A DNA stretch of 64,000 bases from Desulfuromonas sp. (GCA_002869615.1 PKUH01000106.1:6158-70157), one strand, 5' to 3'. Numbered from the stretch's first letter, positions 37,774-49,157 are shown. The notes: generated by a model not told the origin, from the sequence alone. A program made the numbers and translations.

Positions 37774-37803
37774 CTGAACTTCCATTCTACTCCGGAGGTG
37801 AAG

Positions 37804-39213
37804 ATGTCTGACCGCCGGAACCTGCTCAAAACCCTCCCTGCCATAGACAAAATACTGCACGCGCCCGAGATGATCACGCTGGCCGAAACCTGCCCGCACG
37901 TGCTGCTGGTTGAAGCAGCTCAGCGGACGGTCGATGACTTGCGAAGACAGATTCTCGATGAAAAAATGCCGGCACCGGAGTGCACGCCTGAAATCGTTGC
38001 CAAAAAAGCGCTCGCAATTGCGGAAAAGCTGAATACTCCCTCACTGCAGAAAGTGATCAACGTTACCGGCACCCTGCTCCATACCAACCTCGGGCGAGCC
38101 CCGCTCTGCCAGGCAGCCCTTGCGGCGATGCAGGAAGTCTCGGCCGGGTACTCGAATCTCGAATACGATCTCGATGCCGGTCAACGGGGCAAGCGCTTCC
38201 GCCATGTCGAAGACCTGATCTGCCGCCTGACCGGGGCCGAGGCGGCGACGGTGGTCAACAACAACGCCGGTGCCGTCCTGCTGGCGCTTGCCGCCCTTGC
38301 CGGAGAGAAAGAAGCGCTCGTCTCCCGCGGCGAGTTGATCGAAATCGGCGGTTCGTTCCGCATCCCCGACATCATGGCGGCCGGAAACGTCAGACTGGTC
38401 GAAGTCGGAACCACCAACAAGACCCATCTTGAGGACTACCGCAGGGCGATCACAGCCGATACGGCGCTGATCCTGAAAGTCCATACCAGCAACTACCGCA
38501 TTGTCGGATTTACCGAAGCGGTTCCGGGCAGCGCCCTGGCCGACCTCGGCCGGGAAAAGGGCGTCACTGTACTCGAAGACCTCGGCAGCGGACTGCTGAT
38601 CGATCTGTCAGATTACGGCCTGCCGCCGGAACCGACAGTCGGTGAAGCGTTGAAGACCGGGATAGATGTACTGACATTCAGCGGCGACAAGCTCCTCGGC
38701 GGACCGCAGGCCGGTATTATCGTTGGCCGCAAAGAGTGTATTGAGCGGATACGCAAACACCCGATGGCCCGGGCCCTGCGTATCGACAAGATGACCCTGG
38801 CGGCGATCGAAGCGACCTTGCGTCTTTACCTCGATCCGGAGCAGGCACTGCGCGAAATCCCGACCCTGCGGATGCTGGCGCAGCATGATGACCAGTTAAA
38901 GGTAAAAAGCGAGCAGCTGATCGAGAAACTAATGAAAGAACTGAACGGGGCATGCAGCATGGAATTAATCTCGACACTGGCTACGGTTGGCGGCGGCGCC
39001 CTGCCGCTGGCCGAGCTTCCCGGCTTCGGTATTGCCCTCAAACCGAAAACGATCTCGCCGAACCGGCTGGCCGAAAACCTCCGGCAGTCGATACCACCGG
39101 TTATCGGCCGGATCCAGAACGAATATTTCATTATCGACCCACGGACTCTAGCCGTAGATGAAGAGCCCCTGCTCTGCCAATCTCTGGCGAATGCCTTAAG
39201 GATAACCGACTGA
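37804..39213 (+). CDS. selA: L-seryl-tRNA(Sec) selenium transferase
   Basis: PLP-lysine context FSGDKLLGGPQAG and family homology throughout. The ATG at 37804 follows GGAGG. The ORF-track start at 37798 is a GTG inside the spacer. Confidence 0.94.
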   Translation: MSDRRNLLKTLPAIDKILHAPEMITLAETCPHVLLVEAAQRTVDDLRRQILDEKMPAPECTPEIVAKKALAIAEKLNTPSLQKVINVTGTLLHTNLGRAPLCQAALAAMQEVSAGYSNLEYDLDAGQRGKRFRHVEDLICRLTGAEAATVVNNNAGAVLLALAALAGEKEALVSRGELIEIGGSFRIPDIMAAGNVRLVEVGTTNKTHLEDYRRAITADTALILKVHTSNYRIVGFTEAVPGSALADLGREKGVTVLEDLGSGLLIDLSDYGLPPEPTVGEALKTGIDVLTFSGDKLLGGPQAGIIVGRKECIERIRKHPMARALRIDKMTLAAIEATLRLYLDPEQALREIPTLRMLAQHDDQLKVKSEQLIEKLMKELNGACSMELISTLATVGGGALPLAELPGFGIALKPKTISPNRLAENLRQSIPPVIGRIQNEYFIIDPRTLAVDEEPLLCQSLANALRITD

Positions 39214-39215
39214 CC

Positions 39216-41129
39216 ATGGCGCCGCCCGAACGACACCATATTATCGGCACGGCCGGTCATGTCGACCACGGCAAAACCGAATTGATCCGGGCCCTGACCG
39301 GGACCGACACCGATCGCCTGCAGGAAGAAAAGGCGCGCGGCATCTCCATCGATCTCGGCTTTGCCCCGTTCAGACTTCCGGACGGCTCGGTGGCCGGTGT
39401 CGTCGATGTTCCGGGTCACGAACGTTTTATTCACAATATGCTCGCCGGCGTCGGCGGAATCGATCTGGTGCTGCTGGTTATCGATGTTCAGGAAGGGATC
39501 ATGCCGCAAACCCGTGAGCACCTGCAGATCCTCGAACTGTTGCAAATCCAACAGGGAATCATTGTCCTGACCAAGTGCGATCTCGCCGAAGATGACTGGA
39601 TCGATATTGTCGAAGAAGAGGTCCGTGAAGAGCTACAGGAAACATTCCTCGAACATGCTCCCTTCTGCCGGGTTTCGTCAATCAGCGGCAGCGGCATTGC
39701 GGAGCTGAAGGAGCAGATCGCCAAAATCCTCAGGCAGGTCGAATCGAAGGATTGCGATGGCCCCCTGCGCCTGCCGATTGATCGCCATTTCAGTGTCGCC
39801 GGTTTCGGCACCGTTGTCACCGGCACCCTGCTCTCGGGCCGCATCAACACCGGCGTTACCACCGAGCTGCTGCCGCCCGGAATCGAAGCCCGGATCCGTG
39901 AAATTCAGGTGCATGGCAAGAAGGTCGAGGCCGCAGCCGCCGGGCAGAGGGTTGCTCTAAACCTCGCCGGCGTTGACCGCGCCAAGTTGAAAAGGGGAGC
40001 GGTGATCGGTACGCCCGGAATCTTTGAACAGACCGAAATGATCGACGTCCGGCTCAACCTTCTGCCGGGCGCTCCGCGGACTCTCAAGTTCCGTGATCCG
40101 GTCCACTTTTACCTCGGTACCGCCCGGGTCGTTGGAATCGTAGCCCTCCTCGACCGCGATGAACTCAAACCTGGTGAAACCGCCATCGTTCAGATCCATC
40201 TCGATCGGCCCCTGGTCGCCCATCGCCAGGATCGATTTATCGTCCGTTCCTATTCGCCGATGACCACCATTGGCGGCGGCATGATCATCGATCCGGGACC
40301 GGCCAAGCACAAACGTTTTCGTGATGAGGTCATGCAGACCCTCTCCGAGCTCGAATCGGGTGAGACCTCGTTCCTGTTGCAGAAAATCAGTGAACTGACC
40401 GGCCCGAAAGTCAAGGAGCTTGAGCAGGCCTCCGGCCTCGGTCGGGAAAGGATCGAGGACCACCTCGAGAGACTGGCAGAAGATGGCACGGTCATCCGGC
40501 TTGGCGATCAGTGGTTGACCGGAGAGACGGTTCGCGCCTGGGAGCGACTGCTGCTTGAACGATGCACCCGGTTCCACGCGGACAACCCGCTCCTCAACGG
40601 CATTCCGCTGGCAACCCTGAAAGGGATTTTGCCGCACCCCCTGGCTGCCAAGGGGTTTGATGCACTGCTCAACCGGCTCGAAGAGCGTGGTGAGCTGACG
40701 CGGCGTCTCGACAACGCGGCTCTGCCCGGTTTCCGGCCGGAACCATCACCTGAGCAAAAGAAAAACATCGACGCCATCCTGAAAAACTACGAGGACGCCG
40801 GGGCATTAGCCAAAAACCGGACGGAAATGCTGGCCCGGCTCAATCTGAGTGAAGCCGAGGCAAACGATTGCCTGGGCTACCTGTTTGCCGAAGGGCTTTT
40901 GATCCGCTTGAATGACGAAAACTTTTTTCATCATAAAACTTTTGATTTCGCCATCTCGCTGCTCCGTGATAAATTTGCCGATAGAGAGTTCAGCCTTGCC
41001 GAGTTTCGCGATGAACTCGGCAGTGCCCGCAAGGCGGTCCAGGCTTTACTCGAATACTTTGACGCGCAGAAATACACGATGCGCAAAGGTGATGTCAGGG
41101 TCGCATGGAAACTGCCCGAAAAAACTTAG
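39216..41129 (+). CDS. selB: Selenocysteine-specific elongation factor
   Basis: G-domain motifs GHVDHGKT, DVPGHERF and TKCD, plus a long C-terminal winged-helix extension. 637 aa. Confidence 0.94.
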   Translation: MAPPERHHIIGTAGHVDHGKTELIRALTGTDTDRLQEEKARGISIDLGFAPFRLPDGSVAGVVDVPGHERFIHNMLAGVGGIDLVLLVIDVQEGIMPQTREHLQILELLQIQQGIIVLTKCDLAEDDWIDIVEEEVREELQETFLEHAPFCRVSSISGSGIAELKEQIAKILRQVESKDCDGPLRLPIDRHFSVAGFGTVVTGTLLSGRINTGVTTELLPPGIEARIREIQVHGKKVEAAAAGQRVALNLAGVDRAKLKRGAVIGTPGIFEQTEMIDVRLNLLPGAPRTLKFRDPVHFYLGTARVVGIVALLDRDELKPGETAIVQIHLDRPLVAHRQDRFIVRSYSPMTTIGGGMIIDPGPAKHKRFRDEVMQTLSELESGETSFLLQKISELTGPKVKELEQASGLGRERIEDHLERLAEDGTVIRLGDQWLTGETVRAWERLLLERCTRFHADNPLLNGIPLATLKGILPHPLAAKGFDALLNRLEERGELTRRLDNAALPGFRPEPSPEQKKNIDAILKNYEDAGALAKNRTEMLARLNLSEAEANDCLGYLFAEGLLIRLNDENFFHHKTFDFAISLLRDKFADREFSLAEFRDELGSARKAVQALLEYFDAQKYTMRKGDVRVAWKLPEKT

Positions 41130-41146
41130 CCAAACGAGGATGATAA

Positions 41147-42184
41147 ATGTCTGGACAGGTCAAGTTGACCAGCCTTTCACGCACCAGTGGTTGAGCCGCC
41201 AAACTGGCCCCCGAGCCGCTGGCGCAGGTGCTGCGTCAGTTACCGAAAACTGAAGATCCCAATCTGTTGACGGCCGGGATTCTCTTTGCCGACGCCGGAG
41301 TTTACCGGATAGCGGACGATTGCGCCCTTGTCCAGTCGGTCGATTTCTTTACGCCGATTGTCGATGATCCGGCGACCTTCGGCCGCATCGCCGCCGCCAA
41401 TGCCCTGTCCGATATCTATGCGATGGGCGGCAAACCAATTACGGCCCTCAACATGGTCGGCTTCCCGAAATGCCTCGATCACGGCATTCTCGTCGAGATC
41501 CTCAAGGGGGGGGCTGAAAAAGCCGCCGAAGGGGGAACCATTATCGTCGGCGGCCATACCGTAGAAGACGATGAACCAAAATACGGCCTGGCAGTGACCG
41601 GACTGATTCACCCCGACAGCATGATCACGACCGCTGGAGCCCAGCCGGGCGACGTTCTGATTCTGACCAAACCGCTCGGTACCGGCATCCTGGCAACAGC
41701 ACTCAAGGGCGAGGTTCTCACCGAGGTGGATATTGCTGAAGCGATTGCCGGGATGGAATCTCTCAATCGCGATGCATCCGAAGCGATGCTGGCCGTCGGA
41801 GTCAATGCCTGTACCGACATTACCGGCTTCGGTTTTCTCGGTCACGCCATCGAAATGGCTGAAGCAAGCTCGGTCTGCATTGAAATTTCAGCCGAAAAAC
41901 TTCCGGTCTATCCACGCGTCCGCGAGATGGCTGCGATGGGGATGATCCCGGCCGGCAACCGGCGGAACCGCAACTATTACTGGCCGAAAGTTCTCGACGG
42001 CCACGTACCGACAACCGACATCATCGACCTTGTCTCCGATCCGCAGACCTCGGGAGGGCTGCTGATATCGGTTGCCGCCGACAAAAAAGAACAATTGATC
42101 CAGCTTCTTGCCAACAAAGGGGTCGATGCCCGCATCGTCGGCGTTATATCATGCGGACGGCCGGGAACGGTCAGAATCGAGTAA
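41147..42184 (+). CDS. selD: Selenophosphate synthetase, Sec-containing form. The in-frame UGA at 41192-41194 is codon 16.
   Basis: The N-terminus extends upstream of the ORF-track start: MSGQVKLTSLSRTSG-U-AAKLAPEPLAQVLRQLPK.... The UGA sits at the position of the catalytic Cys/Sec in the SelD glycine-rich N-terminal loop. The rest is a PurM-like fold (DDPATFGRIAAANALSDIYAMGG). Confidence 0.88.
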
Positions 42185-42199
42185 AGACTTCACCTTTCA

Positions 42200-43885
42200 T
42201 TATTGAGAAGAGCTGCTTTTGCCAAGCCTGAGGTAGGCGAATTGTTGAGCCGCGTACAAATCCCTGTTCATTCCTGATGTCTGCTCCATAAATGCAATAT
42301 CCTTCAAAACATCCCGATAAATCACTGACCTGTTTTTAATTTCAGGTAATTTAGAATTGGGGAACGCGTTTCTTCTTAGAAAAACCATGGAAACTTCGTC
42401 ATGGTAAACAAAACTCCACTCAGGAGTTTGCCATAAATAATCTGTTAATTTGTACAACTCACCGGTAAAAGGGTTTAGTCTCGGAACCAGGATAATATCA
42501 ATCTGATTTGAATCCAGAATCCTTTTCGTTTTATCAGGCAGCCACAACACACGCGTATAGGCGTCGAAAAGACGAAGGTTCAAACTTCTGCCATCGATAA
42601 ATGTGACAAGCTGTCCCGGTGCATGCCATGCCAAGTAGCCCCCCCAATTAAAATGGTTAAAAATATTTCCTGACAACTCATGGGATTGCAAGAATGCGAC
42701 AGCTTCTTCCGGGAACCGTCTTTCATTCACAGGGTTTTCCGACAACACACGGTAACTTTCCGAAACCTGGCGTACAGCCTGCCACGCCAGGAGGACTATC
42801 AGTGACAGGGTCACTCCGGCAGTAAATACTTTCAAGGTATTATTCTCACGACGCCTGATTTCATACTTATCAAAGATGAAAACGACAAAACCACTGATGA
42901 AAAACGGAGCGTAACGAAAAGCCGTCGTACTGACGAGAAACAAAAAAGAGACAATGGCGAGTTTGGTTAATGATATTTTCAGTCTGTTTAAGAACAGAAT
43001 TGCAATAAAAAGGAAAAGAGCGAAAAAATATGGCCAGTAGACCAGAATATCTCTTTTCGCAAGAACAAAGGGCGACAGGTATTCCGATGATTTCTGTTGA
43101 ATCAGCCCCCCTTGGGACTGGATAAACTGCATGTAAATATTGAGTCCGTTCGGATTAAGGAGAGTTGAAAAAATTGCAAGAACGATAATCCCCCATAAAA
43201 TCATGAGTCTTTTTTTAGGGTTGCCGCTGTGAAGTATACTACCACTTTCAAATACAATGAAAAGAGCGAGAACAGCAACCCCAAGGAGAAAACCACCGTG
43301 CAGGTTGGCCCATAGCAGCATAAACGGTGGAAGGAGTATTGCCGCTCGCAAATTGTATTGCTTCTTTTCATCCATCTCCGCAGAAAAACCGACTGCTGCC
43401 AGGAGTATGAAAAATATTGGGACTAATAGCAAAGTCAAATGATTCGGCCTCAGACCGGGAACATAGACCAGCCCCCATCCCAAAAGCAGTGAAGCTAGGA
43501 TCGCGACTTCGAAGCTGATATTACGGATGCGGAAATATAAAAAGGTAACAACAATGGGTAAAGAGATGAGGACAGCGCGAAAGATAACCATGCCCTGTTC
43601 AGCACTAAAGATGAAAACCTTATAAAGTATAATCTGGGAAAGCCAATAGCCGTTCAGAATTATCTCACGATCTGGAGAAATAGCTCGACCGGCCAGACCG
43701 AAAGGATCATGATTCAACAGGGATCCGGTTTGACAGATATGCCGTCCTGTCGCGAGATGCCACCAGATGTCGATGTCCGAGATCGGTTCAATAGCTAAGA
43801 TGAAAAAACTTGCAGTAACGACTATCAGGCCGACCACCTGGAGAGGGTGATTGATCTGGCTATATTTTCCAATAAGCTTTTTCAC
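42200..43885 (-). CDS. Polytopic membrane protein, possibly a GT-C-fold glycosyltransferase-like protein, with a C-terminal soluble domain. Function unknown.
   Basis: 561 aa with about 12 predicted TM helices. An acidic motif (ISDIDIWWHL) follows TM1, as in GT-C enzymes. The C-terminal domain of about 190 aa contains FNHFNWGGYLAW...FIDGR. The gene is visibly more A/T-rich than its neighbours. Confidence 0.45.
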   Translation of the reverse strand: MKKLIGKYSQINHPLQVVGLIVVTASFFILAIEPISDIDIWWHLATGRHICQTGSLLNHDPFGLAGRAISPDREIILNGYWLSQIILYKVFIFSAEQGMVIFRAVLISLPIVVTFLYFRIRNISFEVAILASLLLGWGLVYVPGLRPNHLTLLLVPIFFILLAAVGFSAEMDEKKQYNLRAAILLPPFMLLWANLHGGFLLGVAVLALFIVFESGSILHSGNPKKRLMILWGIIVLAIFSTLLNPNGLNIYMQFIQSQGGLIQQKSSEYLSPFVLAKRDILVYWPYFFALFLFIAILFLNRLKISLTKLAIVSFLFLVSTTAFRYAPFFISGFVVFIFDKYEIRRRENNTLKVFTAGVTLSLIVLLAWQAVRQVSESYRVLSENPVNERRFPEEAVAFLQSHELSGNIFNHFNWGGYLAWHAPGQLVTFIDGRSLNLRLFDAYTRVLWLPDKTKRILDSNQIDIILVPRLNPFTGELYKLTDYLWQTPEWSFVYHDEVSMVFLRRNAFPNSKLPEIKNRSVIYRDVLKDIAFMEQTSGMNRDLYAAQQFAYLRLGKSSSSQ

Positions 43886-43932: not shown

Positions 43933-44343
43933 TCAGAGATCCCCTGTTAATTTCTGAAGCCTGAACAATTTCGGATTCAGGATTTTGACACATTCAACAA
44001 TATCCTGCAAACCCTGTTCATCAACCCTCTCTTCCTCATCTTTCCCTTGAAACCAGGCATACCCTTTCGGCAATTCAGAGGGTCGGCCGCCGCGCATCAA
44101 CATTACGTCAACCATCTCGTTCACCCGACCCTCTGCTTCCCAGGGATCACGATAATCATATTGCCGAGCGATAATGTTGAGCATCAAACCATTCGGAAAT
44201 TGCGCCCGCACCTCGAACGAATATTCGCGCGGCGCGCTGTAATTATCGGTTCGGCCACTGCGCGACATCGCCCGGGCACCGGCCGCGTCAAGCATTTCCT
44301 TGACCGTCTCCTCGGTCATCGGTTTTTGTTCGGTCATTAACAA
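43933..44343 (-). CDS. Hypothetical protein (136 aa)
   Basis: ORF only. I recognise no motif. Codon usage looks native. Confidence 0.4.
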   Translation of the reverse strand: MLMTEQKPMTEETVKEMLDAAGARAMSRSGRTDNYSAPREYSFEVRAQFPNGLMLNIIARQYDYRDPWEAEGRVNEMVDVMLMRGGRPSELPKGYAWFQGKDEEERVDEQGLQDIVECVKILNPKLFRLQKLTGDL

Positions 44344-44407
44344 ATTCCTTTTCTAAAAATAAATTCGCCAGCAGGCCGCGAAGAAAAACAATCTCAATAG
44401 ACACACC

Positions 44408-44528
44408 TTTTAACGGAGAGACGCGAAGGTGGAGAGGGAATCCACACACACAAAAAATTCAGTATTCGATCTGACGCTTGATAACTCGTTTCCTGTTGCC
44501 TCTACCTCTCTCCGCCTCTCCGTTAAAT
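44408..44528. repeat. Imperfect long inverted repeat with a 12-nt perfect core (TTTAACGGAGAG ... CTCTCCGTTAAA) and purine-rich / pyrimidine-rich arms of about 28 nt
   Basis: Left arm tttaacggagagacgcgaaggtggagaggg (from 44408). Right arm cctctacctctctccgcctctccgttaaa (to 44528). The arms are about 60 nt apart. The repeat lies in the 240-nt gap between the vWA gene stop and the start of the 136-aa ORF. Confidence 0.6.
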
Positions 44529-44583
44529 GCCGTGAGTTTTAATAACTTCTTGGTGCCTTCGTGGCAAACACGCCTGTCATTTA

Positions 44584-45804
44584 TCACGTGTGCAGTCGCA
44601 GCTCCACTCCCCAGTCGGCCGGTTTCTGGCCATCGATGGTCAGAGCCCAGAGGGTCGGGAACTCCATCGTCTCCGGGACAGGACCATAACCATCGGTCAG
44701 ATAGATGACGGCGGCCGGTTGCGGCTGCATGGTTCGGGCATATGCAAAAACCGGGCGCAGATCGGTAAACCCGCCACCGGTCACGACTTCAGCAACCACA
44801 TTACTGCCGGTGAAAGAATCGACCTTCTGAATGCGGCTGTTGGCATAAAGAACCGTGATCAGGCTGTCGCGGCTTCTGGCGATCTGCAGCAGTTCGCGGG
44901 CGAACGCTTTCCGCAATTCGAGAATATCAGTCGACTCACTGGTATCGATACCGACCAGCAGATTCAGGCGCTTTTTCTTGCGAACTCCCGGGGTACTGTG
45001 CGAAAAACGCCGATGTTGGCGTTTCCAGGTTGACTGTATGCCGACCCGTCCGGCGGTCGCGACAAACTGGCGCAGAATTTCTCGCCACGGAATGGCCGGT
45101 GGGACCAGCCAGCCTTCAACCAGTTGTTGGACATCGGCCGGCACCTCGCCGCCACTTTTCCGGTGCGCATCAACGACCATATCGCGAACGGCCTGTTCCG
45201 CCAGGCGCTCCGGTGTCGAGCCGGCATCATCCCAGAGGCTGTGGTCATCAATGGTACGAGGAGCAAAGGACTGCGCCGAAGTGCTTTCCCTTTCCGGGCC
45301 GTCAGCGCTTTCCTTTTCAGGGGTGGCCGTACCATAGCCATCGCCGCGCAGGTTGCCGGTATCGAATTGTGGGGTCAGCAGGCGGGCATACTCTTCGGCG
45401 GCCCGACCGGGTTCGAGGCGAAAACGGTCGGGTTGCAGAGCTTCGGCCGGCAGGTTGTCGATGGTCGGGTTGATCGCCAGGTCGGTTGCGACATCCCAGG
45501 TCAGCGGATGAAATATTCCACGGCGAAACGGGTGCATGTGCAGGATATGTTTGAGTCCGTGCTCAAGAAGAGCCTGCTGTTCCGAGTTGCTGAATTGAAG
45601 AAAAGGTTCAGGGTTGATCGCCAGCAGGGGAGTGCCATTGCGCACCGTGGCGCCGAGGCAGCCATCGGTCGAAGTCAATTCACGGCGAAAGTTCATCAGG
45701 AAATGCCCGTAAAAAGGCTTTTCCTTCAACAGGCGGATGACCGAATTCTCGAGCGCACGTTGTCCATTCTGCTGCAATGAGGAGAATTCAGCCATAGCGG
45801 TCAC
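44584..45804 (-). CDS. DUF2201-type protein: N-terminal zincin-like (putative metallopeptidase) domain plus C-terminal vWA domain
   Basis: 406 aa. The N-terminal half contains ..ALLEHGLKHILHMHP.. and WDVATDLAINP (DUF2201_N-like). The C-terminal half has the MIDAS motif GIDTSES (DxSxS) and a vWA-like fold. It starts 4 nt after the AAA+ gene. Confidence 0.7.
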   Translation of the reverse strand: MTAMAEFSSLQQNGQRALENSVIRLLKEKPFYGHFLMNFRRELTSTDGCLGATVRNGTPLLAINPEPFLQFSNSEQQALLEHGLKHILHMHPFRRGIFHPLTWDVATDLAINPTIDNLPAEALQPDRFRLEPGRAAEEYARLLTPQFDTGNLRGDGYGTATPEKESADGPERESTSAQSFAPRTIDDHSLWDDAGSTPERLAEQAVRDMVVDAHRKSGGEVPADVQQLVEGWLVPPAIPWREILRQFVATAGRVGIQSTWKRQHRRFSHSTPGVRKKKRLNLLVGIDTSESTDILELRKAFARELLQIARSRDSLITVLYANSRIQKVDSFTGSNVVAEVVTGGGFTDLRPVFAYARTMQPQPAAVIYLTDGYGPVPETMEFPTLWALTIDGQKPADWGVELRLHT

Positions 45805-45807
45805 CGA

Positions 45808-46869
45808 TCAGGAAGCCTCTTCGCTGATCGCACTGATGGCGTCGAGTACCAAGGCATCGTGTTCATCCTTGCAGAGCAAAGCTGCTACCTCCGGGATCTT
45901 GACCAGTGACTTGACCAGTCCGAACCGGGCGTCACGCGGCAGGACCGCGATGTAAGCGACCAGATGTTTCTCACGCACCGGGCTGAGGCTCGGCTCCAGT
46001 TGCAGGGTCGACACCAGGTCGTTCATGGTCACCGCCTGGGCATCATCACGCTGGGCAACAACCCGGGGTTCGACCTCCGGCCAGGTATCGAGGACTTCAT
46101 TGGCGCTAACCGGCCGTTCGCTTTTTTCACGGCACCAGCGCAGGAAGCTGACCGCGGCTTCCTGGCCAACGATGCCGGCATAGACTTCCATTTCGAGTTC
46201 GTCAGCAAACCGGCACGACCTGCGCAAGGTGCTGACCATCTCCCAGGCCCGCTCGCTCGGTTCCATCTGCATATCGAGTGGCGCCCCCTGGCGCGCCAGG
46301 AACTGCGGCTGGCCGGAGAGAAACTGCCGCACCGATTCATCGAAATCCTGTTCCCGGGCATAGTCGGCCCAACAGCGGTAATCGGTTTCAACGTAAAGCA
46401 TCACCATCCGGTCGAGCAGGGCCCGGTCGAGAGTCGCCACCTGGTAGCTTCCATCCGGCGGGTTGATCGAAACGACAACCTTATGCTTCGGGTGCAGGGT
46501 GTGGGTATGTAAAGCTCGACACCTACCCGCCAGCGGCGGCTCGACGAACTGGAAGATCGCCTGCAGGGTATCCTCCTGCTGGGCCCGGTTGAGCTCATCG
46601 CAGTGAATGATGGACGCTTCGTTCTCATCATCCGGCCACCACGACGGCCGCGACCAGTACATGACCTTGCCCTCGCGATACGGGATGCCGACCAGGTCGC
46701 CAACCTCCATCTGGCCGAGGCGGAGAGAAACATATTTCCGACCAATCTCGTTACAGACCTGGAGGATTCCGGCCGATTTGCCGACTCCGCGGTGACCTAC
46801 AACACATGGTGTGAGCTCGGTGTGAAGAATGATTTCGTGAAGAACCGATTTCATTTGTGCAATATTCAT
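45808..46869 (-). CDS. MoxR/AAA_5-type AAA+ ATPase
   Basis: Walker A GHRGVGKS and Walker B SIIHCDELNRA. The start is uncertain between the ATG at 46869 (MNIAQMK) and the TTG at 46908. Confidence 0.8.
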   Translation of the reverse strand: MNIAQMKSVLHEIILHTELTPCVVGHRGVGKSAGILQVCNEIGRKYVSLRLGQMEVGDLVGIPYREGKVMYWSRPSWWPDDENEASIIHCDELNRAQQEDTLQAIFQFVEPPLAGRCRALHTHTLHPKHKVVVSINPPDGSYQVATLDRALLDRMVMLYVETDYRCWADYAREQDFDESVRQFLSGQPQFLARQGAPLDMQMEPSERAWEMVSTLRRSCRFADELEMEVYAGIVGQEAAVSFLRWCREKSERPVSANEVLDTWPEVEPRVVAQRDDAQAVTMNDLVSTLQLEPSLSPVREKHLVAYIAVLPRDARFGLVKSLVKIPEVAALLCKDEHDALVLDAISAISEEAS

Positions 46870-47163
46870 TTTGAGGGTCCGTTGATTGTTGACAAACAGG
46901 GTTATCAATTACCATATCAAGACGAATGACGCAACCAACCAGAGAAAGCATCAATAATGATTATTATCTCTGGCAGCCTTGTCAATTTACGTTTTTTGGT
47001 ACCGTGATTTAACACATATTAATTTTGAGTTCATGCCAAGGCTCGTATCATAATCCATTAGCAAAAAGATTAAACATGACTCCACGCCATAAAGTTCTAT
47101 GAAATCAATTGCTTACAAAAAAAACACGGCCAAATCCCTAAACTGACAATAAAGTTCTGATTT

Positions 47164-47314: not shown

Positions 47315-47905
47315 ATGAAGAAGTTTATTGTCCTAACCGCTGCTCTGGTTTTTATGAGCAGCAGCGCTTTTGCGCTGATTGCCAACTCCGGTCATGATTT
47401 CACCGGAACGTTTACCAATGACATCTGCGCACCGTGCCATGTTCCTCATAACGGAACAACTGGTGTCGGACCACTGTGGTCACACTCATCGGCTACCGCG
47501 ACTTCGTTTACCATGTACTCGAACGCAACCATTGATATGACCATCGCAGGCTCTCCGCAAGCTGAATCTCTGGCATGCCTGAGCTGCCATGACGGCGAGA
47601 CAAACCTCGACGACTTCATCGGCAGCGCCACTACCGGCACTACAATGACCGCAGGTATTGCTGCAAACCTCGGCACTGACTTGAGTGATGACCATCCGAT
47701 CAGCATTACCTACGATACAGCTCAAGACGCTGCTTACAATACGATCGCCAATGCTACAGCTGATGGCATCGTTTTCTACTGCGCTTGTTCAAATCAGGTC
47801 GAATGTGCATCTTGCCACGATGTTCACAACTCGTTTGATGTTGCTCCGCTGCTCCGTTTCTCGAATGCTGGTAGTAACATGTGCTTGGCCTGCCACATTA
47901 AGTAA
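47315..47905 (+). CDS. Secreted tetrahaem c-type cytochrome
   Basis: Signal peptide MKKFIVLTAALVFMSSSAFA and four CxxCH motifs (CAPCH, CLSCH, CASCH, CLACH). It shows paired-CXXCH style contexts (GHDF....CAPCHVPH, DDHPIS, CASCHDVH). AAAGGAGAAG RBS. Confidence 0.88.
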   Translation: MKKFIVLTAALVFMSSSAFALIANSGHDFTGTFTNDICAPCHVPHNGTTGVGPLWSHSSATATSFTMYSNATIDMTIAGSPQAESLACLSCHDGETNLDDFIGSATTGTTMTAGIAANLGTDLSDDHPISITYDTAQDAAYNTIANATADGIVFYCACSNQVECASCHDVHNSFDVAPLLRFSNAGSNMCLACHIK

Positions 47906-47936
47906 TTTTGCCTGGCTTAAGTAAGTAACACCTGAT

Positions 47937-47976
47937 ACTGGCGATCGGAGCTGCAGGTCTGATCGCCAGTTTTCTT
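47937..47976 (+). terminator. Rho-independent terminator after the cytochrome gene
   Basis: ACTGGCGATC-(14-nt loop)-GATCGCCAGT followed by TTTCTT. Confidence 0.8.
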
Positions 47977-48068
47977 ATTGATCTTCCTTTCAAATTTACA
48001 GATAATCAGATAACGAACAAGTTCACAAATTATTTCTCTTTTTCTATAAAGGATAAAGGGTACAGACA

Positions 48069-49157
48069 GTGAAATATCGAGCACATAAAACATTAACCAG
48101 CAGCTTTTGCAGGGTAATAATCGTTTTTTTATTATCGAGCCTGATGTCGGCTTGTGCCACCAAACCAGTGGAGTATACGCTCTTCCCACCGGAACCAGCG
48201 GCGCCGCGCATTCAGTTGCTTAAGCAATTCCATAACGGCTCGACCCTTAAAGAAGACAACAAGCTTTTTGATTTTATAATTGGGGATACCGGATCTGATT
48301 CCTTATCAAAAGCTTTCGGCCTCACCTTTAAGGACGGTAAGCTTTTCATCGTTGATTCCGGTAAAGCATCCCCTAGTTATTTGATAGTCGACTTTGATCT
48401 TTCCACAATGGAGAGACACGCCGGACAGCTTATAAAGCCAATTCATATATCAATAGACGCTGAAGGTAACCGTTATATCTCCGACACTGTTAACAGAGCC
48501 GTGATAGTATTCAATCAAAATGATAAATATCTCAGAAAAATCAAATTAGATGAAAAGAATTTTTGGCCAACCGGTTTGCAAATAATAGACGACAGACTTT
48601 ATGTATCAGACCTAAAAGCCAACCTGATCAGGGTTTTCGATAAAGATACCGGTAAGTTGCTGAACACCTTTGGCCAGAATGATCGACTTGGCTGGCCGAC
48701 CTCAATTTCCCTGATGCCGAATGGTAATCTTCTTGTCACTGAAACACTCGCAGCTGCACTTCGCCTCTATACAAAGGATGGTACTTCGATCAAACAAATT
48801 GGTTCTCCCGGAGACCGGGCCGGTAATTTTGCCCGACCAAAGGGGACCGCGGTCGATAAAAACGGAAACATCTATGCTGTTGACGTCGCTTTTCAGAACG
48901 TCCAGATTTTGAATACCGATGGTGACCCACTCATGTACTTTGGTTCGACCGGTGACAACAATTCTCTCTGGATGCCGGCCGGCATTGCGATCAGTTACGA
49001 TGTCCCCGAAGCATTGAAAAAGCTAGCTAAGCCTGGATTTAACATTGAATACATCATTGCAGTATCGAGCCAGGGCGGCCCACATATGTTGTCCAAAATT
49101 TCGGTTTACGGTTTCGGCAAGCAAGAAGGCATCGATTACAGCAAGGATGGTGACTAA
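48069..49157 (+). CDS. NHL-repeat six-bladed beta-propeller lipoprotein
   Basis: GTG start, signal with lipobox-like LMSAC, and repeated NHL-like blades (..GNRYISDTVNRAVIVFN.., ..DRLYVSDLKANLIRVFD.., ..GNLLVTETLAAALRLYT.., ..GNIYAVDVAFQNVQILN..). Confidence 0.8.
   Translation: MKYRAHKTLTSSFCRVIIVFLLSSLMSACATKPVEYTLFPPEPAAPRIQLLKQFHNGSTLKEDNKLFDFIIGDTGSDSLSKAFGLTFKDGKLFIVDSGKASPSYLIVDFDLSTMERHAGQLIKPIHISIDAEGNRYISDTVNRAVIVFNQNDKYLRKIKLDEKNFWPTGLQIIDDRLYVSDLKANLIRVFDKDTGKLLNTFGQNDRLGWPTSISLMPNGNLLVTETLAAALRLYTKDGTSIKQIGSPGDRAGNFARPKGTAVDKNGNIYAVDVAFQNVQILNTDGDPLMYFGSTGDNNSLWMPAGIAISYDVPEALKKLAKPGFNIEYIIAVSSQGGPHMLSKISVYGFGKQEGIDYSKDGD

What the first reader, a model, noticed from the sequence alone, without database searches (positions are those of the whole stretch)
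43933..46908. MoxR-type AAA+ ATPase plus zincin-like/vWA (DUF2201) pair with a possibly degenerate HExxH, followed by an unknown 136-aa gene
The AAA+ gene (Walker A GHRGVGKS, Walker B HCDELNRA) ends 4 nt before a 406-aa protein. That protein's C-terminal half is a vWA domain with an intact MIDAS motif (DTSES). Its N-terminal half resembles the DUF2201 putative metallopeptidase domain. Where that family usually shows HExxH, this protein reads H-G-L-K-H (..ALLEHGLKHILHMHP..), which suggests loss of the catalytic Glu. This is my by-eye alignment only. MoxR-vWA pairs are established as metal-insertion or chaperone modules (RavA-ViaA, NorQ-NorD, CbbQ-CbbO). Comparative genomics has also proposed some vWA-MoxR modules as conflict or signalling systems. 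This pair has no obvious client enzyme nearby. It sits in a compositionally mosaic patch next to a structured repeat and two unknown genes.
Basis: partly seen in the sequence, partly recalled or inferred. Interest (0 to 1): 0.6.

Follow-up and report, generated by a model that had tools for sequence, protein, structure and literature searches.

The report
Glu-less MoxR–vWA chaperone trio, Desulfuromonadales
This is a three-gene set (an ATP-driven motor, a metal-binding adaptor whose peptidase-like half has lost its catalytic residue, and a small protein of unknown fold) that is inherited vertically across the Geobacter/Desulfuromonas group; it is a new variant of a widespread but unstudied chaperone-type gene pair, not a defence island.

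Summary
On the minus strand lie three genes. The first is an AAA+ ATPase (46869/46908..45808). The second is a DUF2201_N + DUF2201 protein (45804..44584). The third is a 134/136-aa gene (44337/44343..43933).

The ATPase keeps Walker A/B, sensor 1, the Arg finger and sensor 2. A family profile matches midasin, CbbQ and NorQ.

The vWA half of the second protein has a complete MIDAS motif. The zincin-like half reads H-G-L-K-H…H. The wider family (11,730 clusters at 50% identity) reads HExxHxxxxH in about 89% of the representatives examined. The catalytic Glu is G/A/V/L/S/C/T in the 120 closest proteins and in G. metallireducens. All three His are kept, and no HExxH or HxxEH occurs elsewhere in those proteins.

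New result: the small gene is the conserved third partner. It lies directly downstream in 64 of 72 informative Desulfuromonadales/Geobacterales loci. It is under purifying selection and has no Pfam, PDB or fold match. It was absent next to the three Glu-retaining relatives and the three other Glu-less lineages that I could inspect. No client gene (nor, cox, cbb) is linked. Nothing of this clade turned up in viral contigs, phage or plasmid collections, or PADLOC.

Best reading: a housekeeping MoxR-type remodelling module with a pseudo-peptidase adaptor. The client is unknown. It is a new variant of a known kind, of moderate interest.

The parts
46957..46985 (-). Sigma-70-like promoter candidate (TTGACA-17-AATCAT) upstream of the ATPase gene
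   Evidence: Consensus scan, 10 of 12 matches. This is weak evidence. No upstream motif is conserved across 61 orthologous upstream regions.
45808..46908 (-). AAA+ ATPase of the MoxR/AAA_5 (midasin-CbbQ-NorQ) class. The ORF is 366 aa from TTG. The probable true start is ATG 46869 (353 aa).
   Evidence: Walker A GHRGVGKS and Walker B HCDE are present. Sensor-1 N149, Arg finger R167 and sensor-2 R220 are invariant in distant relatives. PHROG 1297 'ATPase' scores 2.7e-46. Pfam AAA_5 scores 19.1 bits, below the gathering score of 22. The family profile matches Midasin at 2.6e-23, CbbQ at 1.6e-7 and NorQ at 2.2e-5. It lies upstream of the vWA gene in 61 of 72 loci.
44584..45804 (-). DUF2201_N + DUF2201 protein (406 aa from GTG; 403 aa from ATG 45795). 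It is a zincin-like domain, a disordered linker, a helical middle domain and a vWA/MIDAS domain.
   Evidence: Pfam DUF2201_N 3.2e-23 and DUF2201 5.7e-14. PHROG 1314 scores 5.7e-48. The AF2 model has pLDDT 74 and is disordered at residues 150-180 and 254-277. No PDB sequence relative was found.
45361..45753 (-). Zincin-like N-terminal domain (residues 18-148)
   Evidence: Pfam DUF2201_N. The AF2 model is confident here, with pLDDT 85-95. There is a weak fold resemblance to the minimal zincin selecase (prob 0.95, E 0.08). pN is 0.32, against 0.49 for the linker.
45532..45561 (-). Degenerate zinc-binding motif H82-G83-L84-K85-H86…H91. The family consensus is HExxHxxxxH. The catalytic Glu is replaced by Gly.
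   Evidence: Alignment with 136 diverse relatives gives H82 135/137, E at position 83 122/137, H86 136/137 and H91 136/137. In the clade, position 83 is G, A, V, L, S or C, and T in G. metallireducens.
44593..44973 (-). vWA-like domain with a complete MIDAS motif: D287-T-S289-E-S291 (44946..44932), T347 and D371
   Evidence: Pfam DUF2201. The MIDAS residues are invariant in the clade and near-invariant in the family. Clade-specific changes lie next to them: G290 to E/D, E320 to Y, R344 to G and G346 to F.
44402..44534 (-). Imperfect inverted repeat (39-nt arms, 72% complementary, 55-nt loop) in the 240-nt spacer between the vWA gene and the small gene
   Evidence: the repeat finder. The RNA fold gives -47.2 kcal/mol, z -2.76. 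No Rfam match was found. It is unique in the window and absent from 98 loci. The spacer in other species has a median of 69 nt. It is therefore a lineage-specific insertion and probably not part of the mechanism.
43933..44343 (-). Conserved third gene 'p136' (134 aa from ATG 44337), a soluble alpha/beta protein that is an orphan family
   Evidence: 931 homologues, all labelled 'hypothetical' and none with a Pfam hit. It lies within 700 nt downstream on the same strand in 64 of 72 loci. pN is 0.24 and pS 0.80. The AF2 model has pLDDT 78 and pTM 0.73. No significant fold match was found in PDB (best E 0.18) or BFVD (best E 0.013, TM below 0.5). No Pfam, NCBIfam, PHROG or PADLOC hit was found.

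Best explanation
The three genes form one cytoplasmic, housekeeping MoxR-type remodelling (chaperone) module that is specific to the Desulfuromonadales/Geobacterales.

Shown:
- The ATPase keeps every catalytic AAA+ motif.
- Its partner keeps a complete MIDAS metal site in the vWA domain.
- The partner's zincin-like domain has lost the general-base Glu but keeps the three His. It is therefore most likely a non-proteolytic ('pseudo-peptidase') domain that still binds a metal or a peptide.
- A 134-aa orphan protein was gained in the same lineage that lost the Glu and remodelled the loops around the MIDAS site.
- All three genes are retained under purifying selection, even in genomes where the ATPase has become unlinked.

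Inferred, by analogy with NorQ/NorD, CbbQ/CbbO and midasin:
- The ATPase forms a hexameric ring.
- The vWA protein docks on the ring and uses its MIDAS ion to grip an acidic residue of a target.
- ATP hydrolysis pulls on or remodels that target.
- The small protein is the dedicated adaptor, or the client itself. Its invariant acidic residues, for example the near-C-terminal T-G-D, are candidate MIDAS ligands.

The final client is unknown. Metal or cofactor delivery to some enzyme is one plausible job, and the retained His3 site fits it.
For: Domains and motifs.

Glu loss with His retention across the clade, and no alternative HExxH.

Conserved trio:
- p136 is directly downstream in 64 of 72 loci and the AAA gene is upstream in 61 of 72.
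- De novo clustering of all ORFs in 80 loci finds only these three genes widely conserved: 80, 68 and 64 loci. The next is SelD at 23.

Co-derived character states in the p136-bearing clade only: E83 to G/L, N264 to H, G290 to E/D, E320 to Y, R344 to G and G346 to F. The deepest sampled member (46% identity, motif HLLVH) also has p136 and the AAA gene. The three Glu-retaining relatives and the three other Glu-less lineages with readable flanks have no p136.

Purifying selection acts on all folded parts.

The ATPase is retained at about 80% identity in genomes where it is not adjacent. These are Geomobilimonas luticola (about 30 kb away), Geobacter sp. AOG1 and OW818669.

Vertical, chromosomal inheritance:
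- 221 species genomes were hit, and the best 80 are all Desulfuromonadales/Geobacterales.
- Synteny with ftsZ, a radical-SAM gene and selDBA holds in the Desulfuromonas-type genomes.
- No clade member occurs in 2.9 million viral contigs.
- Phage and plasmid relatives of the vWA protein are at most about 30% identical, and p136 has no match in either collection.
- PADLOC gives no hit.
Against: - No interaction, ATPase activity, metal content or phenotype has been measured for any member of the DUF2201 family. I found almost no literature on it.
- Loss of the Glu does not strictly prove loss of catalysis.
- The role of p136 rests only on gene linkage. Its fold gave no functional clue.
- Pfam AAA_5 is below its gathering score for this ATPase.
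- The link between Glu loss and p136 rests on one clade, that is, on one evolutionary event.
- In several Geobacter genomes the ATPase is unlinked and sits next to other genes: an M16 peptidase in one lineage and an alpha/beta hydrolase in another. It may therefore serve other partners as well.
Confidence: 0.55

Rival explanations
1. It is still an ATP-regulated protease. The zincin-like domain remains catalytic, using another general base. Candidates are the invariant E81 just before His1, or a residue supplied in trans by p136. The AAA+ motor would feed it substrates.
For: The three His are invariant and the domain is under purifying selection. E81, K85 and H89 are invariant within the core clade. 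89% of the wider family keeps HExxH and is probably proteolytic. A peptidolytic role has been proposed for the phage versions (PMC7824862).
Against: Position 83 is G, A, V, L, S, C or T, and none of these can act as a base. E81 is not clade-specific: E or K is common there in Glu-retaining relatives. It would also face away from the metal on a helix, which is an inference. K85 and H89 are not kept in the deepest p136-bearing member, which reads HLLVH…L. Glu loss recurs independently in about 10% of representatives, which is typical of pseudo-enzymes.
Confidence: 0.15
2. It is a biological-conflict or anti-phage system of the ternary vWA-MoxR kind, with p136 as sensor or effector.
For: It has a three-gene architecture built on a MoxR-vWA core, as in the ternary systems of Kaur et al. 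2020 (PMC7159879). Relatives of the pair occur in phages, on plasmids and on a conjugative-like contig. Low-GC, lineage-specific genes flank the trio in this window.
Against: PADLOC gives no match. p136 is a 134-aa protein with no VMAP, iSTAND, FtsH, beta-propeller or effector domain. The trio is inherited vertically, with conserved synteny, 54-81% identity and no hypervariability. It is absent from viral contigs, and p136 has no match in the phage or plasmid collections. The genes persist even when dispersed in the genome, which is unlike defence islands.
Confidence: 0.07
3. It is a domesticated remnant of a phage or mobile-element MoxR-DUF2201 pair with no current cellular role, and p136 is an unrelated neighbour.
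For: The strongest profile matches are to phage families (PHROG 1297 and 1314). The pair is common in N4-like and jumbo phages.
Against: pN is 0.19-0.32 with saturated pS across an entire order. p136 adjacency is kept in 64 of 72 loci with variable spacers. There are no integrase, tRNA-attachment or phage genes in the conserved neighbourhood. Phage homologues are only 20-29% identical.
Confidence: 0.05

Closest known systems
MoxR AAA+ / metallopeptidase-fused vWA pair of phages (PHROG 1297 + PHROG 1314; group 2.2 jumbo phages in Iyer et al. 2021, PMC7824862; N4-like phages such as Erwinia phage S6 gp035/gp036)
   Same: The two-gene order is the same: an ATPase, then a DUF2201_N + DUF2201 protein, often with overlapping genes. 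The Pfam domains are the same, and the MIDAS and His residues are conserved.
   Different: Identity is only 20-29%. Most of the wider family keeps the HExxH Glu. No p136 homologue occurs in the phage collection or in the two phage loci searched. The window clade is chromosomal and vertically inherited. The phage function is itself only a proposal (virion assembly and processing). In the two phage loci I inspected, the pair sits among early or replication genes.
NorQ/NorD and CbbQ/CbbO (CGN-type MoxR ATPase with a vWA/MIDAS adaptor that matures or reactivates a defined enzyme)
   Same: These are AAA_5-class motors recognisably related to this one (CbbQ 1.6e-7, NorQ 2.2e-5). Each has a separate vWA partner with a MIDAS site, encoded next to the motor.
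   Different: The adaptor here has a different architecture: a zincin-like domain fused to a short DUF2201 vWA. No nor or cbb client genes are linked. There is an extra orphan partner.
Midasin/Rea1 (eukaryotic AAA_5 ring with a C-terminal MIDAS domain that grips an acidic residue of its ribosome-assembly clients)
   Same: It is the best solved-structure match of the ATPase profile (2.6e-23). The logic is the same: an AAA_5 motor plus a MIDAS grip.
   Different: Midasin is a single giant polypeptide with six AAA modules. It has no zincin-like domain. Its clients are UBL-domain assembly factors (from my own knowledge).
Ternary vWA-MoxR conflict systems (VMAP, iSTAND, FtsH and beta-propeller types; Kaur et al. 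2020, PMC7159879)
   Same: A MoxR-vWA core plus at least one further conserved gene.
   Different: The third gene is none of the four defining types. There are no effector domains, no hypervariability and no sporadic distribution.

Membership tests
MoxR-type (AAA_5 class) AAA+ ATPase | Walker A, Walker B, sensor-1 Asn, Arg finger and sensor-2 Arg are intact | tested here: met
   GHRGVGKS and HCDE are present. G41, G43, K44, S45, E105, N149, R167 and R220 are invariant across relatives at 23-40% identity.
MoxR-type (AAA_5 class) AAA+ ATPase | Pfam AAA_5 (PF07728) match above the gathering score | tested here: inconclusive
   The window protein scores 19.1 bits against a cut-off of 22. The Moorella phage relative scores 24 bits. 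Precomputed AAA_5 hits exist for relatives in L083, L086, L091 and L092.
MoxR-type (AAA_5 class) AAA+ ATPase | Closest solved relatives are MoxR, midasin or dynein class proteins rather than Clp or classical AAA proteins | tested here: met
   The profile of 7 family members matches Midasin at 2.6e-23, CbbQ at 1.6e-7 and NorQ at 2.2e-5. The best Clp hit, ClpE, scores 1.5e-6 over only 52 residues.
MoxR-type (AAA_5 class) AAA+ ATPase | Encoded next to a vWA/MIDAS partner | tested here: met
   Only 3 nt separate it from the vWA gene in the window. It is adjacent in 61 of 72 loci.
MoxR-type (AAA_5 class) AAA+ ATPase | Assignment to one of the seven Snider-Houry subfamilies (MRP, RavA, CGN, APE2220, PA2707, YehL, and APE0892, which one of the papers I read lists as TM0930) | not tested
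   No reference set of subfamily sequences was at hand. The subfamily lists were taken from PMC3893208 and PMC9964418.
DUF2201_N + DUF2201 ('VWA-like domain-containing protein / predicted metal-dependent peptidase') | Both Pfam domains score above gathering, in this order | tested here: met
   83.2 bits (cut-off 23.2) and 52.7 bits (cut-off 26.4).
DUF2201_N + DUF2201 ('VWA-like domain-containing protein / predicted metal-dependent peptidase') | Family signature HExxHxxxxH…R…D…N | tested here: not met
   H82, H86, H91, R94, D108 and N112 are present, but the Glu is Gly83. The family has Glu in 122 of 137 sequences. It is a member by profile, but a derived, Glu-less subfamily.
DUF2201_N + DUF2201 ('VWA-like domain-containing protein / predicted metal-dependent peptidase') | MIDAS DxSxS…T…D | tested here: met
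   D287, S289, S291, T347 and D371 are all present.
Catalytically active zincin metallopeptidase | HExxH with Glu as general base | tested here: not met
   The window protein reads HGLKH. No HExxH or HxxEH occurs anywhere in 120 clade proteins.
Catalytically active zincin metallopeptidase | Bound zinc and measurable peptidase activity | not testable with these tools
   This needs purified protein, metal analysis and a protease assay.
Ternary vWA-MoxR conflict systems (Kaur et al. 2020) | The third component is a VMAP, an inactive STAND NTPase, FtsH or a beta-propeller fusion, and effector domains are present | tested here: not met
   p136 is 134 aa with no Pfam, NCBIfam or PADLOC match. The vWA protein carries no extra effector domain.
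Ternary vWA-MoxR conflict systems (Kaur et al. 2020) | Patchy, horizontally spread distribution typical of defence genes | tested here: not met
   221 species were hit, and the best 80 all fall in one order-level group with conserved synteny. The clade is absent from viral contigs, and neither the phage nor the plasmid collection holds a close relative.
Client-linked MoxR-vWA maturation systems (NorQD, CbbQO, CoxDEF, RavA-ViaA) | Conserved linkage to the client genes (nor, cbb, cox, ldcI/nuo) | tested here: not met
   De novo clustering of all ORFs in 80 loci shows no further widely conserved neighbour. SelD (23 loci), SelB (16), a Tpx-like protein (16) and the radical-SAM gene (12) reflect local synteny only.
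YugN-like family (the name one UniRef entry gives to a p136 orthologue) | Match to the Pfam YugN model, or to a YugN structure | tested here: not met
   No YugN hit at E up to 10 for any of 26 members. No YugN entry appears among the top 50 Foldseek PDB matches. The name itself was seen.

The most novel reading that the evidence does not exclude
The Glu-less DUF2201 protein and the orphan p136 co-evolved into a new, order-specific maturation machine. In it, the dead peptidase domain's His3 site and the MIDAS site hand a metal or cofactor to p136, or hand p136 itself to a client characteristic of Desulfuromonadia physiology, for example a component of their metal-respiring or multi-haem redox apparatus. 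This would be the first defined function for the very large DUF2201 family, and an example of a pseudo-peptidase recruited as a chaperone adaptor.
Probability: 0.15. Interest if true: 0.6.

Novelty: new variant of a known kind. Interest (0 to 1): 0.4.

Why it matters
The MoxR-like ATPase + DUF2201 pair is very common: 11,730 clusters at 50% identity reached E ≤ 0.001, across bacteria, plasmids and phages. I could find no experimental function for it, and only four papers in the library mention the domain at all.

The variant described here is well suited to experiment. It has a defined extra partner and a naturally inactivated peptidase site. It is also present in the well-studied species Geobacter metallireducens GS-15, where the p136 orthologue is ABB30586.2 / Q39YT8. 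It could show what the zincin-like domain does when it does not cut, and what such modules act on.

For genome annotation, it also shows two things. The small 'hypothetical protein' belongs with the pair. Many phage records label DUF2201 proteins 'HNH endonuclease', and the one such protein I scanned has no HNH domain.

Tried and rejected
- NCBIfam gave no hit for any of the three proteins. PADLOC gave only a chance-level SduA hit at 0.06.
- Single-sequence PDB searches with the ATPase and with the vWA protein found nothing. The vWA profile found only a chance CzcD hit at 0.21. The p136 profile found only a marginal hit to a COX-assembly protein at 0.035, which I did not pursue and regard as chance.
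- Foldseek with the p136 model found nothing significant against PDB or BFVD. Foldseek with the whole vWA406 model gave only weak domain-level hints: selecase and USP-like Rossmann folds.
- Rfam found nothing in 42.0-48.2 kb. Tandem repeats there are trivial.
- The first genome scan, with patterns from the single protein, failed. The alignment-based scan worked.
- A k-mer search for a conserved regulatory motif upstream of the ATPase in 61 loci found none. The best 9-mer occurs in 7 loci.
- I looked for a common third gene beside distant relatives. Their downstream genes are unrelated to p136 and to each other.
- I tested whether the genes now next to the unlinked ATPase (an M16 peptidase and an alpha/beta hydrolase) were once part of the operon. 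They are not found in any of the 80 loci.
- The 'YugN-like' label for p136 is not supported.
- Literature searches for DUF2201, COG3864 and Geobacter + MoxR gave nothing on this system.

Full report
**1. What is in the window**

Three genes lie head to tail on the minus strand between 46908 and 43933.

- Gene 1 is the ORF 46908..45808. It encodes an AAA+ ATPase.
- Gene 2 is 45804..44584. It encodes 406 aa and starts 3 nt after the stop of gene 1.
- Gene 3 is 44343..43933. It follows a 240-nt spacer.

The window comes from a Desulfuromonas sp. metagenome-assembled genome. Gene 2 is 100% identical to NCBI protein C0623_11650.

Orthologue starts suggest slightly shorter true gene models. Gene 1 probably starts at ATG 46869, giving 353 aa. 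Gene 3 probably starts at ATG 44337, giving 134 aa.

**2. The ATPase**

I aligned the protein with relatives at 23-40% identity taken from other bacteria and from two phages. The invariant residues include the P-loop, E105, sensor-1 N149, the R167 Arg finger and sensor-2 R220.

Pfam AAA_5 falls just under its gathering score: 19.1 bits against 22. Single-sequence PDB searches are empty. A seven-member profile does better. It matches midasin AAA modules at 2.6e-23, CbbQ at 1.6e-7 and NorQ at 2.2e-5. PHROG 1297 ('ATPase') matches at 2.7e-46.

'MoxR-type' is therefore justified at the class level. I did not assign a subfamily.

**3. The vWA partner and the degenerate HExxH**

Pfam gives DUF2201_N (3.2e-23) plus DUF2201 (5.7e-14).

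An exhaustive search of 1.84 billion representative proteins finds 11,730 relatives at E ≤ 0.001. I aligned 136 near-full-length representatives from the best 150 hits. The family signature is HExxHxxxxH…R…D…N, together with a MIDAS DxSxS…T…D. Counts out of 137 are:

| Position | Residue | Count |
|---|---|---|
| 82 | His1 | 135 |
| 83 | Glu | 122 |
| 86 | His2 | 136 |
| 91 | His3 | 136 |
| 108 | D | 136 |
| 112 | N | 137 |
| 287, 289, 291, 347, 371 | MIDAS | 135-137 |

The window protein has all of these except the Glu, which is Gly83. In the 120 closest homologues the motif is H-[G/A/V/L/S/C]-[I/L/V]-[K/R]-H. In Geobacter metallireducens it is HTIKH. No HExxH or HxxEH occurs anywhere else in these proteins.

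Glu loss is not unique to this clade. About 10% of the representatives lack the Glu, in several unrelated lineages. Some of those lie on phage-like contigs.

**4. The third gene is the conserved partner**

A scan of one genome per species found 221 species with this subfamily. The best 80 loci are all Desulfuromonadales/Geobacterales: Desulfuromonas, Trichloromonas, Geoalkalibacter, Geobacter, Geomonas, Oryzomonas, Geomobilimonas and others.

Among loci with enough flank, a p136 homologue at 54-76% identity lies within 700 nt downstream on the same strand in 64 of 72. It is 1.5-5.5 kb downstream in 5 more. The ATPase lies within 700 nt upstream in 61 of 72.

I then clustered every ORF in the 80 loci de novo. 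Only three real genes are widely conserved: the vWA gene (80 loci), p136 (68) and the ATPase (64). The next are SelD (23), SelB (16), a Tpx-like protein (16) and a radical-SAM protein (12). Those reflect local synteny in the Desulfuromonas-type genomes.

p136 has 931 homologues, every one unnamed and without a Pfam domain. It evolves under purifying selection (pN 0.24; pS saturated at 0.80). The AF2 model is moderately confident (pLDDT 78, pTM 0.73). It shows a helix, a five-stranded sheet and two C-terminal helices. It has no significant match in PDB or BFVD. One UniRef entry calls an orthologue 'YugN-like', but no member matches Pfam YugN even at E ≤ 10.

**5. Glu loss, MIDAS-loop remodelling and p136 go together**

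The deepest sampled member of the subfamily is 46% identical to the window protein and has the motif HLLVH. It has the ATPase upstream and a p136 homologue (51% identity) overlapping its stop.

The nearest Glu-retaining relatives are 37-43% identical. They have the ATPase upstream but unrelated downstream genes. A p136 profile finds nothing in any of the 12 other outgroup and phage loci I held.

The p136-bearing sequences also share derived states that all the nearest outgroups lack. These are N264 to H, G290 to E/D (inside DxSxS), E320 to Y, R344 to G and G346 to F. This looks like one coordinated refunctionalisation of both domains. It is, however, a single evolutionary event, so the correlation is suggestive rather than statistical.

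**6. Inheritance and context**

In compact Desulfuromonas-type genomes the order is ftsZ, radical-SAM gene, ATPase, vWA gene, p136, selD, selB, selA. Locus L023 is an example.

In the window this block is interrupted on both sides by low-GC genes. These are a 561-aa membrane protein, a 196-aa multi-haem cytochrome and a 362-aa NHL-repeat protein. None has a counterpart in the 80 loci. That accounts for the 'mosaic' composition. The trio itself has ordinary GC.

The 240-nt spacer before p136 carries a unique imperfect hairpin. Other species have a median spacer of 69 nt. I therefore regard the hairpin as a local insertion.

In part of the Geobacter group the vWA-p136 pair stands without the ATPase. 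In G. metallireducens GS-15 it follows a VTT/DedA-like gene. The ATPase is still present elsewhere in such genomes at about 80% identity. In Geomobilimonas luticola it lies about 30 kb away on the same contig. Co-retention after dispersal argues for a functional tie and against a mobile cassette.

No member of the subfamily, and no p136, was found in 2.9 million viral contigs. Phage and plasmid records hold only relatives of the vWA protein at about 30% identity or less, and none of p136. PADLOC has no match.

**7. How it most likely works**

Shown:
- The motor motifs are intact.
- The MIDAS motif is intact.
- The His3 site is retained but lacks the general base.
- There is a dedicated, co-inherited small partner.
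- There is no linked client.
- The proteins have no transmembrane-domain match and no obvious N-terminal signal sequence. I judged this by eye and ran no predictor.

Inferred, from the established mechanism of NorQ/NorD, CbbQ/CbbO and midasin (my own knowledge, plus for the relationship):
- The ATPase forms a ring.
- The vWA protein docks on it and grips an acidic residue of a target through the MIDAS ion.
- ATP hydrolysis remodels the target.

Without the Glu, the zincin-like domain is probably a binding module for a metal or a peptide rather than a protease. p136 is the best candidate for what is bound, either as adaptor or as client. Its invariant acidic residues (E42, D61, D64, D77, E101, E102, D133) offer candidate MIDAS ligands.

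I put about 0.55 on this 'housekeeping chaperone with pseudo-peptidase adaptor' reading. Rivals are a still-active protease (0.15), a conflict system (0.07) and a decaying phage remnant (0.05). The rest is unassigned.

**8. Comparison with what is known**

The two-gene core is a known kind. Iyer et al. 2021 described a MoxR-vWA pair whose vWA cochaperone has an N-terminal metallopeptidase domain, in group 2.2 jumbo phages. They proposed a role in virion assembly (PMC7824862). The same pair occurs in N4-like phages and in a Moorella phage. In the two phage loci I inspected it sits among early or replication genes.

The ternary MoxR-vWA conflict systems of Kaur et al. 2020 differ in the third component, in their effectors and in their distribution.

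I found no paper on the DUF2201 family as such.

The window's trio is a new variant of this known kind, in three respects. It is a Glu-less subfamily, it has remodelled MIDAS loops, and it has an orphan third subunit. It is confined, as far as sampled, to one order-level group.

**9. Verdict**

The finding is real and coherent, but moderately rather than highly surprising. Interest is 0.4.

Noticed in passing
window 42200-43885 (-): This is a 561-aa multi-pass membrane protein in a low-GC stretch (0.43-0.45). It has no Pfam, NCBIfam or PADLOC match and no counterpart in 80 related loci. It appears to be a lineage-specific insertion between p136 and selD.
   Followed up: partly
window 47315-49157 (+): A 196-aa multi-haem cytochrome (Paired_CXXCH_1, cytochrome c7-like) and a 362-aa NHL-repeat beta-propeller protein occupy a second low-GC stretch. 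They lie between the ATPase and the radical-SAM and ftsZ genes. Both are absent from the 80 related loci.
   Followed up: partly
window 44402-44534: An imperfect 39-nt-arm inverted repeat sits in the spacer before p136 (RNA fold z -2.76). It has no Rfam match, is not repeated elsewhere in the window and is absent from other loci. It could be a small insertion or a local attenuator or terminator.
   Followed up: partly
L096 7001-9378 and L097 694-3071 (Geobacter, Logan assemblies): In one Geobacter lineage the orthologous ATPase is unlinked from the vWA-p136 pair. It overlaps by 4 nt the start of a Peptidase_M16 (insulinase-type) gene. In Geomobilimonas luticola (L098) it overlaps an alpha/beta-hydrolase gene instead. 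I did not test whether the motor serves these neighbours.
   Followed up: partly
L086 5001-9108 (NCBI GCA_052744975.1): An independent Glu-less DUF2201 lineage (motif HLCLH) is followed by a Peptidase_M54 (archaemetzincin-like) gene and two radical-SAM genes. This may be another case of a dead zincin domain acquiring new partners.
   Followed up: no
Phage records OR602862.1 (L088 3992-5164), OZ195710.1 and others: Many phage DUF2201_N + DUF2201 proteins are annotated 'HNH endonuclease', which is the PHROG 1314 label. A Pfam scan of the one I checked (Moorella phage) finds only the two DUF2201 domains and no HNH domain, so the label is probably a propagated error.
   Followed up: yes
window 37798-42184 (+): A complete selenocysteine gene set (selA, selB, selD) lies next to the trio. 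selD neighbours p136 in about a quarter of related loci. I read this as synteny, not a functional link.
   Followed up: partly
vWA406 residues 254-277 (window about 44974-45045, -): A strongly conserved basic loop (W260, R262, R265, R266, F267, P272, G273, R275, K276; conserved family-wide) precedes the vWA domain. The model shows it as disordered (pLDDT below 50). It might be the segment engaged by the ATPase, or a processing site in the proteolytic relatives.
   Followed up: no
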